Assembly: GCA_000165345.1 (NCBI GenBank)
Contig: CM000435.1
Coordinates: 928,001 to 992,000, forward strand
Direction: 5' to 3'
DNA length: 64,000 bases
In this document: piece after piece, positions 27,001-36,000 of the stretch
Position numbering within the stretch: the first letter of the stretch is position 1
Layout of the letters: every line of letters starts with the position of its first letter
Made by a program: the position numbers

Positions 27001-30000
27001 AAACTGTACACGAATTCCAATCTTAAAATCAATCTTTGGCAGTGTATTTAACATTGACCAAGCCAAATTTGAATACTCTTCTACGTAAACGTTTTGATAT
27101 ATTTGATTCTGCAAGCAACAATCCGAGGAATTAAAATGTGGAAATAAATGAGTAGGGGCCAAATTTGCATGTCCTTTCTTTTTCACAAGAGATCTATCAA
27201 TATCACGGCAAATCAATTTGGGAATATTCTCAACTGGCATTGACTCTTTGATCAGCTCAGATCCCTTAATAGAATTTGAGTTACCATGTTTCGTTGAACT
27301 TTGTCCAAAACCTTCAATCTGAATCTTCTTTGATCTAAGAAAAGGCAATAACCATTCACTAAAATTGTTTTCTAACCCTGACCTCAATTCTTTCATCAAT
27401 TTCCTGAAATAATCTCTCTGAGTGATACCCTTGTCATTTGCTTTTGGAGGGGGGTTTGAGGACTTGTATGTATTCACCTTTGAGATAAATAAATTCAGAA
27501 TGTCTGGCCTAACTTTAGGTAGAAGTCTCCACTCCATTGATGCTACTGCTGTCACTACATGCCCTGGAAGCTTTGGAGAGATCTTTGAAATCTCTGGTCG
27601 TCTTGAAAATAACCACCAAATGTAATATGACCAATCAGAAACTGAAGAATATTGCTCCGGTGAAACTATGGTGGTTTCTTCTCCCACAATACAAGAGACA
27701 AAAATCTTCTCCATTGTTGGAATCTCTTCTTCACCACAATTCTTTATTACGTCAGAAATCCTCTTTTCTGTCCATAATTTCTTCCATAGTTCTGGTGCTG
27801 ATTCTCTTTTTTGTGCAATTCTTGCTAATAAGTGAGCTGGTATTTCTCGGTCAAGATCACTTAGTTTATTTTCTTTGCCTCTCATCAACTCATGGAAAAA
27901 TGGATTACTCATATAAGGTACGCTTTTATTGACATATTTCTCTCTCTTAATTGTATTTGCTACTTCCTTATTGTTGATGGAACTTACAATTTTATCATTC
28001 TCTAGAGCAACTAAGATATCCTCCAATACATCTCCATCCTCGCAAACTTTGGTGTTTAAATTAACATTATTACTCATGGAATTTTTTTCCTCTATCGGTA
28101 ACTTTCCTGTTGGGTAATGTCCGGTTATGCCAAAGAGAAAATATAACTGTCCCGCTACCCCAATTACTTTTAAGAAAAAAAAAAGTGAATTAAATTAAAT
28201 AACTGAAAATTTCTCATTCTAATAAAAGAACAATGCTCCATTTTTTTTTTTTTTGAAACCCCATTTTACAGTTAGTAGTATCGGAATATCAATACTATGT
28301 TCTGCAACTAATCAATTCTTATAGGTACGGTAACAGAAATAAATTAATAATCAAAAAATATTAAGTAGAACCTAAAGCATTTAAAACAAATCATTTTCAT
28401 ATATCTTATCTATAACTCAAATATTGTCCAACTTTTCTCAATTTTCATCCTCTTTAACTTTCCATTCTTTAACTTAATAAATCATTAAAGGAAACTTTGG
28501 CGCCTTCCCCAGCATGTTATTTCCATTAAGATACATTATTACGTTAATTCCCGAGTGAGGATTAATGGGTATGTGGAATAATCTAATTATATCTAAACAT
28601 TTCTATCTTTTTTGATCTATTTGATTAATTTTAAGTTTTTTCTCAGAAGTATTGATTTAGGTAAATCCTTATTGCAAGAAAAGATGACTTACAAGCTAAC
28701 ATTGATTCGTCATGGTGAAAGTGAGTGGAACAAAGAAAATAGGTTTACTGGTTGGACAGATGTTAGCCTCAGTGAGCAAGGAGTAAGCGAGGCAATTGAG
28801 GCAGGAAGAATGCTTTTAGAGAAAGGCTTCAAATTCGATGTAGTTTACACTTCAGTATTAAAGAGGGCTATTATGACTACATGGACTGTCTTAAAGGAAC
28901 TAGGTAATATTAATTGCCCAATTATTAACCACTGGAGATTAAACGAAAGACATTACGGAGCTTTGCAAGGGCTCAATAAGTCTGAAACTGCCTCCAAGTT
29001 TGGAGAGGACCAAGTCAAGATTTGGAGAAGAAGTTTTGATGTTCCTCCTCCAGTTCTTGAAAAGTCTGATCCAAGATGGCCAGGAAATGAGTTGATCTAT
29101 AAGGGTATCTGTCCCTCATGCTTACCAACAACAGAATGTTTGAAGGATACCGTTGAAAGAGTTAAGCCGTATTTCGAGGACGTAATTGCTCCTTCAATCA
29201 TGTCAGGAAAATCTGTCCTAGTTTCTGCTCATGGGAATTCCCTTAGAGCTCTTCTCTACTTGCTAGAAGGAATGACACCAGAACAAATTCTTGAGGTTAA
29301 TATTCCCACAGCATGTCCACTTGTATTGGAGCTTGACGATTATCTCAAGGTGACAAAGAAATACTATTTGATTAGCGAGGAAGAACTCAAGGCTAAGATG
29401 GAGGCTGTTGCGAATCAAGGAAAAGCTAAGTAAAGAGGTACGAAATTTTAGTAGCCACATTATCCTCTAAAGTAACTTTAGGGCTAGAAACCACTAAGTG
29501 TTCTTTAAATCACAAAAAGTCTATTTCTGTTTATCTCAATTTGTATTTATATGAGCTGATAGATATTTTTTTATTTCAGGAGAAAATGAACACGACAAAA
29601 AGATTCAATTTTGGGAATTATTAGAATTCTAAAATAAGTCTGAAATAATAGATTTCCTGTTATTAACGGGGTAATTATACCACCCATCCCTTTTAGTATA
29701 AGAGATATATAGGACTATTAAAGTTGATAAATAAAGGAGTAGCCCTGTAACCCTATCCACTTCTTCACTGATTTAAATTCATACATTAGTATTTAAAATA
29801 AGCTTTAGGTTACTTTGTATTATACTTTAGCAAATGATGTCTAAAGTTACAAATAAATGATCAGGAGATTCTTATTTTAACGATATATGACAATATTTAT
29901 TCTTGCTCTTCCTCAGACCCTTCATCACCCTCAGTAGCAACTGTTGAATCAGAAAAACTTTCTTCATCCTTTTGTGCAGAGGATGTCTTTGGCTTGTAAT

Positions 30001-33000: not shown

Positions 33001-36000
33001 TAGAATCAAACATCTTCTTCTGCTCTTCAGCGAGCTTAATCTGAGCTGCAATCTCTGGATCTTTCATCATTCTATCGCTAACCTTAATACCACTAATAAT
33101 CTGTGGAGTTCTTGCAGAATCCATGATCTGCTTTTTAACCATACTTCTTGCAATGTTTCCACTTCTAGATAAATATCCTGCCCCAAGACATCCTCCTATC
33201 AATGCTAACTCAACCACTAAAATCAAAATATTTCTCATCTTTTATTTCTAAAAGCCTCAAATATATAATTTATTAAAGACAACTCTTCTTTGAATATATA
33301 TATATATCCTTCAATTATTCACTTCTCCTCTTATGAACCCTTATTTATGATCAAGTAAGTGTCCAATATTTTATCCTACCTTGAAAAACAAGGAATTATT
33401 ATTAGCTCTCACTCTCTCACTTTCAATCTCCTACTTATCTGCCTTTGTTGCACTGGGAAAAAAAATTCTACTCCTCATTAGATCCAGTAATATAAATTAA
33501 TAGATGGCGCCAACGTCGAGACTTGCATCTATTAATCTTTTTATTCATCTAGCATTTTTTGAATATTATACAAAAACATTACGTACAAATCAGCCGGTAG
33601 AAATAGTTATTTTTGACTCTAAATCAATTTTTCTTCCTATTTTTTGCACCTTTTTTCACTGGCAAGATTCTCAGCAATGTATCCTAGGTTGTCTTTCTTT
33701 ATCCAATAGAAGTTCTACCCACATTATCAGATACATTCTTCTTCATATTTAGTTTTGATCTTTTGTTGAGTGTTTTTGATTTTTTTTTTTTTTTTTTTTG
33801 CCTTAAATTTGCCTAAATTCTCCGTAGCTTTCCTTTACTGTGAACTTTTTCAGAAAAAGTTCCCGCCGGATTCTAATATGCACGGGTCACTTTATACCAG
33901 AAGTAAATTGGAGGTTGAAAGTTCTGATAATATCTTTCCCAGTTTTGTATGAAATCAACTCAAAATTATATGAATATCCCTGGATTAATCGTAATTAAGT
34001 GACTTTTAAACCTGGCAATCCTCTAAAACCTTTTCTCTAAATTTTGCCAAAGCTATGGATGTTCTCAAAGTAATAATATGAATAGCCCTTTAAACGATTC
34101 GAATCAACCCACATCGAGAAATGTGGAAAAGATTTACATTGAGATCAAGGATGCTTCAGAAGATTCCTCGGGTTCTGAGAATGACATTTTAATCAGAAAT
34201 GGCATGCAAATAAAGCAAAAACCGTTTCTAATTTGGAAGACACAAAACCTAACAATTGGTCATTATATTCTATTTTATGGGTGTATCCAAGGATATATGG
34301 AGCAGTTATTCCCTGCAAACTACGCACTTTTTGAAAGCCTTTTGTCAATGGATCCAGTTGCTATTGGTACAGCAGCTTTCTTACAAAAGCTTATGTTTAC
34401 CATTGCTTCACCATTTTGGGGAATGATAATAGATAACTCGGACCCAATTAATATTATGAGATTCTCAATCATTTCACTAACAATTTCTTCACTTCTAATA
34501 TGTTTTTCACATACAATAAACCAATTTTTCTTTTCTATGTGTTTTTGGGGATTATTTTCCGCAGTACTTGGTCCATTATCGCAAAAGATAGCCTCAGATA
34601 AGATTTTAGATGGTGGAAGAGGAAAATACTTTGGACAACTTATGTTTTTCCAGACAATTGGAAGACAGTGTGCTCTACTATTTACAGGACTTGTAAGCAA
34701 TAAACATCAAATTGAAACTTCAAAGCAATTTGGATTCTGGATGTTTCCATTTCTTCTTTCAAGTTTATCTGGAATAGTTCTTTTTACATTATTAAAAATA
34801 TTTATTTCCAGTAGTAACAAAGACTATCAGCAAAGCCAAAAACATTTATTTTTAAAATTTAATGGAATTTCATCTATCAAAAATTTAGGCTACGTTTTCA
34901 AGTCAAAAACTGTAATTTCGTTATTTATCCTGGGAATGGTCAATGCAATACCCAGAAGCGCTTTGAACTTTATTCCAATGTGGCTCCAATCAACTGGACT
35001 TTCTCAATTTAGCGCTTCATTCATTGTTTCAATTAGTTGGGTTGCTGCAATGTTTGTATCGCCTATAGTTGGTTTTGTTAGTGATATATTTTACAACTTC
35101 TCTCCTTCCAAAGGAAGGATATTGATGGCTCAGCTTTCCCTAGTTTTCAGATCCATATTCCTATACTTTCTAATTGCAAGAGTCCCTACTGCAGTTTCTT
35201 ATTTCGATTCCGAACAATCTAAATTAATGGTTTATTCTATTATTTCGTTCATTATTGGATTATTTGCAGGATGGCCTGGAATTGGCGCTTGTAGACCCAT
35301 CCTCTGCGAAGTTATTCTACCTCAACATAGAGCAACAGTTTTTGCTCTATCATCCACATTCGAAGGAATTGGAGCAGCATTTTTCGGAACTAGATTTGTT
35401 GGAGATCTTGCAGTTTCTATTTTTGGATACAACTCAAGCAAACAACTATCAGGTTCTACTTCAAATTATATTGCACTGGGTAATGCCATTCTTTGCATGA
35501 CAATTTTCCCTTGGATGATCAGTATTTTACTTTTCTACTTCATTACAAGAGAAAGTCAAAAGATTGTGCACATCAGTAAGGACAAATCAAGCATGGAAAA
35601 GATTCCCGATACACAGTCATTCATTGAAATCAAGGCAGTATAGCATTTTTTGACTCAATTAATTAAAACATATATATATCAATTTATACTTATCTATTTT
35701 TATTTTTTGTATAGATTTACTCTCCTAAAGATCTGTTTTTTTAGTTATTTAACTTTTTTTTTCTCTTTACACTTGTATATCTAAGTCTACACTTTTTAGG
35801 CGCCAATTTCACATGCAGTGTAAGAAGTTGACAATTATCAAGATATACTGATCAGAATAATAAATTTAATTGCCAAAAAAAAGAGTAAATTTTTCCAAAG
35901 ATGGATGTTACTCAAATTTTTGTTTGCGAGGTTAGTTTACTGTGATTTAGCTGTTATTTATCATTTACATATTGATTTTCGTTCTTAGGAATGTGGATCT

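What the first reader, a model, noticed from the sequence alone, without database searches (positions are those of the whole stretch)
29897..33238. Membrane-anchored 1113-aa protein with a (Gly-Pro-Met)-type triplet repeat block
About 90 residues (nt ~32160..32460) are built almost exclusively from GPM/GSM/GPI triplets with occasional extra Gly, for example GPMGPMGPQTGPMGGPMGSMGPMGSMGPMGGPIGGPIG…. This is a Gly-every-third-residue pattern with Met in the Y position. A large, complex, non-repetitive C-terminal domain follows (…GFWPVSAIRFAGGDLVVQAIGWQGSRMLPP…). The repeat also creates a 160-codon shadow ORF on the opposite strand. The combination of N-terminal anchor, flexible Gly/Pro/Met linker and big globular domain is unusual, and I cannot assign it to a known family.
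Basis: seen in the sequence. Interest (0 to 1): 0.55.

Follow-up and report, generated by a model that had tools for sequence, protein, structure and literature searches.

The report
Cryptosporidium secretory protein with Gly-Pro-Met linker
This is the Cryptosporidium parvum gene cgd7_4280, a real, strongly conserved, parasite-specific secretory protein of unknown function. Its odd Gly-Pro-Met block is a length-variable floppy linker, not collagen, and its folded parts match no described protein family.

Summary
ORF 29897-33238 (-) encodes 1113 aa. Its ~94-residue core is 78% Gly/Met/Pro, and that core also opens a non-conserved antisense ORF.

Published RT-PCR primers match exactly, so the gene is C. 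parvum cgd7_4280. Orthologues were found only in intestinal Cryptosporidium species, in conserved synteny. The folded parts are under strong purifying selection (dN/dS 0.04-0.11).

The repeat is not collagen-like. The Gly-X-Y register breaks every 2-5 triplets and there is no Pfam collagen match. Linker length differs between isolates and species (91-131 aa). Met is replaced by Ile/Leu/Val/Ala in distant species. It is an uncharged Gly/Pro/hydrophobic low-complexity linker with an elastomer-like composition.

The "membrane anchor" is a single N-terminal hydrophobic segment. It is more likely a cleavable signal peptide.

Published data show an mRNA burst at 12 h (meront stage). The protein is abundant in oocyst preparations and is enriched in pull-downs of the interface protein DG8. 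It is most likely a zoite secretory-granule protein. Function remains unknown. Interest is moderate.

The parts
29897..33238 (-). Complete single-exon CDS of C. parvum cgd7_4280 (1113 aa, 120.69 kDa, pI 8.9)
   Evidence: ORF. Mauzy 2012 RT-PCR primers for cgd7_4280 match 32976-32997 and 32881-32902 exactly. The molecular weight equals UniProt Q5CXZ8 as listed in PMC9508764. Orthologues are collinear from Met1 to the stop.
33167..33238 (-). aa 1-24: the only hydrophobic segment (signal peptide or type II signal anchor)
   Evidence: Kyte-Doolittle 19-residue mean is 2.14 at aa 4-22; the next best window scores 1.23. Public names are 'signal peptide-containing protein' and 'Signal peptide, large secreted protein'. 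10 of 23 columns are invariant across 7 species.
32978..33166 (-). aa 25-87: poorly conserved spacer with a conserved AAQIKLAEEQ helix
   Evidence: 21% of columns invariant and 40% identity to C. bovis. dN/dS is 0.44 against C. bovis.
32534..32977 (-). aa 88-235: N-terminal conserved domain (LPRLDR...SAGVPG), the most conserved part of the protein
   Evidence: 74% of columns invariant across 7 species and 80% identity to C. bovis. dN/dS is 0.083. No Pfam or PDB match. No paralogue in the giants, window or loci.
32141..32533 (-). aa 236-366: uncharged Gly/Pro/Met(Ile,Leu,Val) low-complexity linker
   Evidence: Composition is G 0.33, P 0.17, M 0.17, charged 0.04. Length is 91-131 aa across species and isolates. 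Only 8% of columns are invariant. dN/dS is 0.36-0.45. No secondary structure and pLDDT 22-31 in the (poor) full-length AF2 model.
32159..32422 (-). aa 273-360: core GPM/GSM/GPI repeat array
   Evidence: TRF arrays at 32162-32415. Sequence read. Gly-spacing statistics.
31349..32140 (-). aa 367-630: conserved middle domain (mixed beta/alpha), with no relatives outside the orthologues
   Evidence: 61% of columns invariant. dN/dS is 0.04-0.11. The profile search finds only orthologues for profile positions 1-265. Pfam finds nothing.
30059..31348 (-). aa 631-1060: all-alpha domain with 11 invariant Cys, homologous to the N-terminal region of giant Cryptosporidium secretory proteins
29897..30058 (-). 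aa 1061-1113 plus stop: acidic Ser/Glu-rich tail (…SFSDSTVATEGDEGSEEEQE)
   Evidence: Sequence. 30% of columns invariant. No KDEL-type ending.
31984..32466 (+). 160-codon antisense 'shadow' ORF; not a gene
   Evidence: Listed. An antisense open frame over the repeat exists in C. parvum and C. hominis but not in C. bovis.

Best explanation
The ORF is C. parvum cgd7_4280, a genuine, expressed protein of the parasite's secretory pathway that is restricted to the genus.

Shown:
- It has one N-terminal hydrophobic signal segment, two very conserved folded regions (aa 88-235 and 367-1060) and an acidic tail.
- The two regions are separated by a 91-131-residue uncharged Gly/Pro/hydrophobic low-complexity segment. 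In the C. parvum clade this segment has drifted to GPM/GSM/GPI triplets.
- The segment changes length in small in-frame steps (3, 6 and 7 residues among C. hominis isolates). This suggests replication slippage, which is an inference.
- Selection preserves its composition and approximate length, not its sequence.

Inferred:
- The segment is intrinsically disordered. It acts as a flexible, elastin/abductin-like spacer that lets the N-terminal module and the large C-terminal module move relative to each other. It is not a collagen triple helix.
- The protein is made when zoites are assembled, stored in secretory granules of sporozoites and merozoites, and released around invasion. There it associates, directly or indirectly, with the DG8/SG4 protein assembly at the host-parasite interface.
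- The invariant cysteines of the helical domain form disulfides in the lumenal or extracellular environment. That domain, shared with giant secreted paralogues, is a protein-protein assembly module.
For: Identity: primer matches; molecular-weight match.

Real gene under constraint: orthologues in C. hominis, C. meleagridis, C. tyzzeri, C. canis, C. bovis and C. ryanae. Synteny CAP-344aa-MFS-target-PGM-606aa-FCP1 is conserved. dN/dS is 0.04-0.11 in the domains and 0.36-0.45 in the linker.

Linker properties: repeat statistics. Linker length is 106-128 aa among C. hominis isolates and 131 aa in the window. Across species G stays at 0.27-0.33, P at 0.11-0.18, charge at 0.02-0.06 and 2P+G at 0.50-0.66. 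This overlaps the Pro+Gly range described for elastomeric proteins (PMC5424786). Abductin is a precedent for a Gly/Met-rich elastomer (PMC13052691).

Secretory route: one N-terminal hydrophobic segment; 11 Cys invariant in the orthologues, 5 of them also invariant in the paralogues; the paralogues also start with signal-type segments.

Timing: transcript is ~1e-7 at 2-6 h, 3-5e-4 at 12 h, with a second rise at 36 h and ~2e-6 at 72 h. Mauzy et al. place microneme, rhoptry and other zoite-building genes in the 12 h group.

Protein evidence: 31 peptides and 31% coverage in an oocyst-wall-enriched preparation. In 3 hpi lysates, 19 peptides with log2FC 4.89 and p=0.066 in the GFP-DG8-C pull-down. 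[quoted passage not shown] That meets the authors' criteria for their 18 enriched proteins, most of which are predicted dense or small granule proteins.
Against: - No localisation of this protein was available.
- Its pull-down enrichment is modest. The same list holds ribosomal proteins and a myosin, so the association may be indirect or non-specific.
- Very strong purifying selection, especially on aa 88-235, is unusual for parasite effectors. It fits a housekeeping role in the parasite equally well.
- Disorder of the linker rests on composition and on a low-confidence AF2 model.
- Disulfide formation and signal-peptide cleavage are untested.
Confidence: 0.6

Rival explanations
1. A collagen-like structural protein. 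The Gly-X-Y block would form a trimeric triple helix that oligomerises the protein, as in bacterial and viral collagen-like proteins.
For: 23 of 34 Gly spacings are 3, with Pro frequent in the X position. This periodicity prompted the finding.
Against: The longest uninterrupted Gly-X-Y run is 5 triplets in C. parvum and 3-6 in the orthologues. Extra Gly or Ser/Gln insertions shift the register nine or more times. There is no Pfam Collagen match even at E<=1. The sequence and register are not conserved between species (8% invariant columns).
Confidence: 0.03
2. A resident, membrane-anchored (type II) protein of the parasite itself, for example of the secretory pathway, pellicle or oocyst/sporozoite surface. 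It would serve a conserved housekeeping role, and its appearance in DG8 pull-downs would be incidental.
For: - The N-terminal segment is 19 residues long with mean hydropathy 2.14. It is better conserved (43% invariant) than the following 63 residues (21%).
- dN/dS of 0.04-0.11 is low.
- The protein is abundant in an oocyst-wall-enriched fraction.
- The GFP-DG8-C enrichment missed the authors' p<0.05 cut-off.
Against: - Small residues at positions -3 and -1 (C17/G19, G19/G21) allow signal-peptidase cleavage.
- Annotators call the segment a signal peptide.
- The transcript is low at 72 h, when oocyst-wall genes are expected to be active.
- The protein is absent from the supplementary tables of the COWP oocyst-wall study.
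- It was enriched in two independent DG8 pull-downs.
Confidence: 0.27
3. A Met-rich metal-binding or redox-buffering segment. The M-x-x-M spacing of MGPMGPMGPM would bind Cu(I) like Ctr1-type 'Mets motifs', or would scavenge oxidants. Knowledge of Mets motifs comes from my own recall and was not checked in a paper.
For: There are 20 Met in the 94-residue core, mostly three residues apart.
Against: The Met fraction falls from 0.17 in C. parvum to 0.08-0.10 in C. canis, C. bovis, C. ryanae and one unnamed Logan orthologue (P0004). Ile/Leu/Val/Ala take its place while Gly/Pro content is kept. Met is therefore not the selected feature.
Confidence: 0.05
4. A mis-annotated or non-functional ORF kept open by chance or by repeat composition.
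For: None, beyond the presence of a composition-driven antisense ORF.
Against: Collinear orthologues in at least 6 named species, with dS up to ~1.9 but dN/dS of 0.13 overall. Regulated mRNA. 19-31 unique peptides in three proteomic data sets.
Confidence: 0.01

Closest known systems
Giant Cryptosporidium hypothetical secretory proteins: C. bovis FG379_003637 / C. xiaoi RS030_6870 (~4000 aa), C. andersoni cand_029350 (3801 aa), C. andersoni cand_033400 / C. muris CMU_037490 (~2300 aa), and a 4140-aa protein from run SRR31860986
   Same: They share a ~400-residue helical domain with conserved Cys-containing motifs (EC..L, D.CL.LR, QC, C.GL...NR, E.LC). Library-wide E-values are 1.7e-7 to 2e-4 and identity is 23-25%. 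All start with a signal-type hydrophobic segment. None has a Pfam domain.
   Different: In the giants the domain sits near the N-terminus and is followed by 1700-3500 further residues with weak internal echoes of the domain. They lack the target's N-domain, Gly/Pro/Met linker and middle domain. CMU_037490 is not syntenic with the target. They are themselves uncharacterised, so they give no function.
Elastomeric low-complexity proteins (abductin GGFGGMGGGX; elastin hydrophobic domains)
   Same: The linker has short degenerate tandem motifs that are very rich in Gly with Pro and hydrophobic residues, and almost no charge. Its Pro+Gly content lies in the elastomer range. Abductin is likewise Gly/Met-rich.
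   Different: This is a resemblance in composition only, with no homology. The segment is ~90-130 residues inside a multidomain protein, not a cross-linked matrix protein. Unlike abductin it is Pro-rich. No cross-linking Lys/Tyr pattern is evident. Mechanical behaviour is untested.
Collagen-like triple-helix repeats (Pfam PF01391)
   Same: Local Gly-Pro-X triplets.
   Different: The register is broken every 2-5 triplets, there is no Pfam match, and there is no conservation.
Cryptosporidium dense-granule and small-granule interface proteins (DG8 cgd8_5300, SG4 cgd6_3920, DG3; PMC13241007)
   Same: Signal sequence, Cryptosporidium-specific, and no known domains. The protein is present in parasites at 3 hpi although its mRNA is minimal at 2-6 h. 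It co-purifies with DG8 in two pull-downs.
   Different: No sequence similarity to these proteins was tested or implied. Localisation of cgd7_4280 has not been determined. Its enrichment is weaker than that of SG4, cgd4_3530 or cgd6_3050. It is far more conserved than is typical for effectors.
Polymorphic low-complexity repeat antigens of apicomplexans (for example Cryptosporidium gp900 or gp60-type mucins; from general knowledge)
   Same: An in-frame, slippage-prone repeat array whose copy number differs between isolates.
   Different: The repeat is Gly/Pro/Met rather than a Ser/Thr mucin-type repeat. The flanking domains are highly conserved rather than variable.

Membership tests
Collagen-like triple helix (PF01391) | Long uninterrupted (Gly-X-Y)n; the Pfam model spans 20 triplets | tested here: not met
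   The longest run is 5 triplets in the window and 3-6 in the orthologues.
Collagen-like triple helix (PF01391) | Match to the Pfam Collagen profile | tested here: not met
   No match at E<=1 for the whole protein.
Collagen-like triple helix (PF01391) | Trimer formation or triple-helix CD signature | not testable with these tools
   Needs recombinant protein.
Elastomeric / elastin-abductin-like disordered segment (functional class, not a homology family) | High combined Pro+Gly content above the elastomer threshold, with hydrophobic residues and few charges | tested here: met
   G 0.33, P 0.17, 2P+G 0.66 and charged 0.04 in the window. The orthologues show 2P+G of 0.50-0.66. The criterion is as described in PMC5424786. 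The more distant orthologues are borderline.
Elastomeric / elastin-abductin-like disordered segment (functional class, not a homology family) | Short degenerate tandem motifs | tested here: met
   TRF periods of 9 and 12 nt plus higher-order periods of 72 and 114 nt.
Elastomeric / elastin-abductin-like disordered segment (functional class, not a homology family) | Intrinsic disorder | tested here: inconclusive
   No secondary structure and pLDDT 22-31 in AF2, but the whole model is poor (mean 35.4).
Elastomeric / elastin-abductin-like disordered segment (functional class, not a homology family) | Reversible extension or cross-linked network behaviour | not testable with these tools
   Needs biophysics.
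Cryptosporidium dense/small-granule proteins secreted to the host-parasite interface | N-terminal signal sequence | tested here: met
   Single hydrophobic segment at aa 4-22. Public annotation calls it a signal peptide. Cleavage was not shown.
Cryptosporidium dense/small-granule proteins secreted to the host-parasite interface | Transcription when zoites are built, and protein present in invading parasites | tested here: met
   The 12 h peak is about 1000-fold or more over the 6 h level. The 12 h group is interpreted. Peptides were found at 3 hpi and in oocyst preparations.
Cryptosporidium dense/small-granule proteins secreted to the host-parasite interface | Localisation to granules by tagging or spatial proteomics, and relocation to the interface | not testable with these tools
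   The hyperLOPIT paper is not held. No tagging has been reported.
Cryptosporidium dense/small-granule proteins secreted to the host-parasite interface | Physical association with known interface proteins | tested here: inconclusive
   Enriched with DG8: p=0.066 in one pull-down and p=0.027 in the other, alongside some obvious contaminants.
Undescribed Cryptosporidium helical Cys-domain family (target aa ~632-1045 plus the giant paralogues) | Significant profile similarity over most of the domain | tested here: met
   Library-wide E-values of 1.7e-7, 2.3e-7, 2.5e-5 and 2e-4. Local domain E-values of 1e-15 to 7e-12. tblastn E-values of 3e-15 to 2e-11.
Undescribed Cryptosporidium helical Cys-domain family (target aa ~632-1045 plus the giant paralogues) | Conserved motif and cysteine skeleton | tested here: met
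   27 columns are invariant across the 10 aligned sequences (6 cgd7_4280 orthologues and 4 giant paralogues), including 5 Cys.
Ctr1-type Mets-motif Cu(I)-binding segments | Conserved MxxM/MxM clusters | tested here: not met
   Clusters are present in C. parvum. In distant orthologues the Met fraction is halved and replaced by I/L/V/A.

The most novel reading that the evidence does not exclude
cgd7_4280 is the missing membrane tether of the DG8/SG4 ring at the Cryptosporidium host-parasite interface. In this reading its N-terminal segment is an uncleaved signal anchor in a parasite-derived membrane. The Gly/Pro/Met segment is an entropic spring that spans the gap. The C-terminal module belongs to a Cryptosporidium-only domain family shared with ~4000-aa secreted giants, and it docks the detergent-dependent but TM-less DG8/SG4 complex. 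The DG8 authors note that neither DG8 nor SG4 has a predicted TM domain, yet both need detergent to be solubilised.
Probability: 0.1. Interest if true: 0.65.

Novelty: new variant of a known kind. Interest (0 to 1): 0.36.

Why it matters
Cryptosporidium is a major cause of childhood diarrhoea, and how it builds its attachment and feeding interface is an open question. cgd7_4280 is abundant and strongly conserved across intestinal species. It co-purifies with an interface protein (DG8) whose loss reduces parasite fitness. No main text in the searchable literature discusses it. This work delivers three usable things:

- A domain map, with a disposable, length-variable linker that is a natural site for internal tags.
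- A previously undescribed domain family that links the protein to giant secreted proteins.
- A polymorphic in-frame repeat that could serve as a typing marker.

If the protein proves essential, its conservation would make it a better antigen or target candidate than fast-evolving effectors. If it proves to be a housekeeping membrane protein, the finding is ordinary.

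Tried and rejected
- Full-length AF2 with 7 orthologues gave mean pLDDT 35, which is unusable for fold search. Only the helical domain, with paralogues added, reached pLDDT 67.
- Sequence and profile searches found nothing significant: Pfam on the whole protein and three sub-regions, NCBIfam, and PDB with the single sequence and three profiles.
- Two of the three word-indexed protein searches returned 'none scored', not even self hits, and one attempt timed out. I therefore could not find the C. parvum copies of the giant paralogues or a deeper alignment.
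- I looked for an orthologue in the gastric species. None appeared. The 50% clustering of the representative library could hide one, and I could not fetch the C. muris PGM-MFS interval. Absence is not established. CMU_037490 is not the positional orthologue.
- Literature: gene and accession identifiers give no main-text hit for cgd7_4280. The hyperLOPIT paper is not held. Several supplements were empty or lacked the gene.
- The collagen, Cu-binding and non-gene readings were rejected (see rival explanations).
- PEXEL/TEXEL, RGD and KDEL motif scans gave nothing meaningful.
- No other GPM-type repeat exists in the window.

Full report
**What is there**

The window is AT-rich (GC 0.27-0.41) and packed with long intron-free ORFs. 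It has no tRNA or Rfam features. The flagged ORF, 29897..33238 on the minus strand, encodes 1113 aa. Residues 273-366 contain 35 Gly, 20 Met and 18 Pro out of 94. Of 34 Gly-to-Gly spacings, 23 are 3, nine are 1 and two are 4. Tandem Repeats Finder reports overlapping arrays at 32162-32415, with 9- and 12-nt units and higher-order 72- and 114-nt units. The DNA uses mixed Gly and Pro codons. The opposite-strand 160-codon ORF (31984..32466) exists. An equivalent antisense open frame is present in C. hominis but absent in C. bovis, so it is a by-product of the repeat.

**Identity**

The neighbours are a phosphoglycerate-mutase-type histidine phosphatase, an MFS transporter, an FCP1-like NIF/BRCT phosphatase, a Band-7 protein and a 4xCAP-domain protein. 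The only homologues in 5.8 billion proteins are Cryptosporidium proteins: C. hominis 96%, C. canis 78%, C. bovis 64%, C. ryanae 65%, plus C. meleagridis and C. tyzzeri in the same 90% cluster. They are named 'signal peptide-containing protein' or 'hypothetical'.

The RT-PCR primer table of Mauzy et al. 2012 (PMC3305300) gave a direct identification. Both cgd7_4280 primers match the ORF exactly (32976-32997 and 32881-32902). The cgd7_4270 primer lies in the PGM ORF and the cgd7_4290 primer in the MFS ORF. Primers for cgd7_4220 to cgd7_4330 map in order along the window. [quoted passage not shown] Gene order around the target is the same in C. hominis and C. bovis.

**Anatomy** (true residue numbers; the positions printed are offset by -1)

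- **aa 1-24:** the only hydrophobic segment, with a 19-residue hydropathy mean of 2.14; the next best window scores 1.23.
- **aa 25-87:** poorly conserved.
- **aa 88-235:** 74% of columns invariant in seven species.
- **aa 236-366:** the low-complexity linker, 8% invariant.
- **aa 367-630:** 61% invariant.
- **aa 631-1060:** 58% invariant, with eleven invariant cysteines.
- **aa 1061-1113:** an acidic Ser/Glu tail.

Nei-Gojobori dN/dS against C. hominis and C. bovis is 0.04-0.11 for the folded parts and 0.36-0.45 for the linker. The N-domain comparison with C. hominis rests on only 3 substitutions and is uninformative. This is a real gene under strong constraint outside the linker.

**The linker**

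Linker length varies between isolates and species:

| Source | Linker length (aa) |
|---|---|
| C. hominis-cluster sequences | 106, 115, 118, 121, 128 |
| C. meleagridis | 125 |
| C. tyzzeri | 112 |
| C. parvum (window) | 131 |
| More distant species | 91-113 |

The differences between C. hominis isolates are insertions or deletions of GPM-type units of 3, 6 and 7 residues.

Across species, Gly (0.27-0.33), Pro (0.11-0.18) and a near absence of charge (0.02-0.06) are kept. Met halves from 0.17 to 0.08-0.10 and is replaced by Ile/Leu/Val/Ala. The longest uninterrupted Gly-X-Y run is never more than 6 triplets. Pfam's Collagen model does not match. The block is therefore not a collagen helix and not a Met-specific device.

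Its composition (2P+G of 0.50-0.66, hydrophobic, uncharged) falls in or near the range described for elastomeric disordered proteins (PMC5424786). Abductin provides a Gly/Met-rich precedent, although abductin is Pro-poor (PMC13052691). I infer a flexible, possibly elastic spacer. Disorder itself is supported only by composition and by a low-confidence AF2 model.

**The folded parts**

No Pfam, NCBIfam or PDB sequence or profile match was found for the whole protein or for any sub-region.

A profile of aa 367-1075 was scored against 1.84 billion representative proteins. It found, beyond the orthologue cluster, only four proteins at E of 1.7e-7 to 2e-4. These are giant (2273-4140 aa) hypothetical proteins of C. 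andersoni/C. muris, C. bovis/C. xiaoi and an unnamed Cryptosporidium-like organism from a sequencing run. None has a Pfam domain. The match covers target aa ~632-1045 against residues ~180-620 of the giants. In the window the giants hit only 30104-31348.

The joint alignment keeps a motif skeleton with five invariant cysteines. The N-terminal and middle domains have no counterpart in the giants or elsewhere in the window. CMU_037490 of C. muris is not syntenic with the target.

**Expression and protein evidence from papers**

In Mauzy et al. the transcript is ~1e-7 at 2 h and 2-11e-8 at 6 h (relative to 18S rRNA). It is 2.8-5.4e-4 at 12 h, ~5e-5 at 24 h, 0.7-3.3e-4 at 36 h, ~3e-5 at 48 h and ~2e-6 at 72 h. 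The authors assign the 12 h group to immature meronts that express apical-complex (microneme and rhoptry) and other zoite-building genes.

The protein was identified with 31 peptides (31% coverage) in an oocyst-wall-enriched preparation that also contains ribosomal and cytosolic proteins.

Puthenpurackal et al. 2026 (PMC13241007) used lysates of cells infected for 3 h. In the GFP-DG8-C pull-down, cgd7_4280 showed 19 unique peptides, log2FC 4.89 and p=0.066. In the anti-DG8 serum pull-down it showed 25 peptides, 84 PSMs, log2FC 2.2 and p=0.027. The second result satisfies the authors' criteria for their 18 enriched proteins. They say 8 of the 14 additional partners are predicted dense-granule or small-granule proteins, but they do not discuss this gene.

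The protein is present at 3 hpi while its mRNA is minimal at 2-6 h. That pattern is expected for a protein pre-packed in zoites.

**Interpretation**

- **Shown:** the gene is real, conserved, expressed and Cryptosporidium-specific. It has a single N-terminal signal-type segment and a compositionally constrained, length-variable Gly/Pro/hydrophobic linker. It has a helical Cys domain with giant paralogues.
- **Inferred:** the protein is routed through the secretory pathway into zoite granules and released at invasion. It associates with the DG8/SG4 assembly. The linker acts as a flexible spacer, and the cysteines form disulfides.
- **Main rival (about one chance in four):** the N-terminal segment is an uncleaved anchor and the protein is a conserved resident membrane protein of the parasite. 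The unusually strong purifying selection and the relatively conserved hydrophobic segment favour this reading. Plausible signal-peptidase sites and the public annotation speak against it.

**Comparison and novelty**

The protein is a member of no described family. It fails the collagen tests. It resembles elastomeric proteins in composition only. It belongs, with the giants, to an undescribed domain family. As a kind of thing, it is a lineage-specific apicomplexan secretory protein with a slippage-prone low-complexity insert. That kind is familiar, and this is an unusual variant of it (Gly/Pro/Met instead of Ser/Thr-rich, with extremely conserved flanks). No main text in the searchable literature discusses it.

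**Limits**

- Two of three word-indexed protein searches malfunctioned and one timed out.
- The hyperLOPIT data could not be read.
- Absence from the gastric Cryptosporidium species is not established.

Noticed in passing
window 48093-57821 (-): A 3242-aa ORF with no Pfam match. It lies beyond cgd7_4330 (primer at 44494), so it may be cgd7_4340. That gene is an 'Uncharacterized Secreted Protein' with 31 peptides and is also among the 18 anti-DG8-enriched proteins. The mapping is unverified. It shows no similarity to the giant paralogues of the target.
   Followed up: partly
window 37396-42399 (+): cgd7_4310 by primer mapping: a 1667-aa protein with four CAP/SCP (cysteine-rich secretory protein) domains. 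It is conserved next to the locus in C. bovis.
   Followed up: no
window 58082-63064 (-): A 1660-aa myosin with a motor head, an IQ motif and an RCC1-like beta-propeller tail.
   Followed up: no
window 26257-28077 (-): cgd7_4260, a 606-aa orphan with no Pfam match. It has very high transcript levels at 2-6 h (~1e-2 relative to 18S) in the Mauzy data. This is the opposite timing to cgd7_4280, which lies two genes away.
   Followed up: no
window 33239-34077; motif at 33506: The 839-bp divergent intergenic region between cgd7_4280 and cgd7_4290 holds a single GGCGCCAA (E2F-like) site and no TGCATGCA-type site. Its significance was not assessed.
   Followed up: no
L004 (SRR31860986 contig) 1313-13735: A 4140-aa orthologue (37.5% identity over its full length) of the C. 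bovis giant protein. It comes from an unnamed organism with a GC-richer-looking protein composition and compact genes, and it lies next to a CDPK-type kinase. This may be an unsampled Cryptosporidium-like lineage.
   Followed up: partly
protein collection, not a window coordinate: No C. parvum copy of the target is in the 15-billion-protein collection. The 90% cluster holds only C. hominis, C. meleagridis, C. tyzzeri and one ENA sequence. Two later word-indexed searches returned no hits at all, not even self hits. That looks like a tool fault rather than biology.
   Followed up: no
window 13477-16866 (-) and 19389-20987 (+): A cation-transporting P-type ATPase (Cation_ATPase_N/C and E1-E2 domains) and a TCP-1/CCT chaperonin subunit (cgd7_4220). 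These are ordinary housekeeping genes that confirm the eukaryotic context.
   Followed up: no
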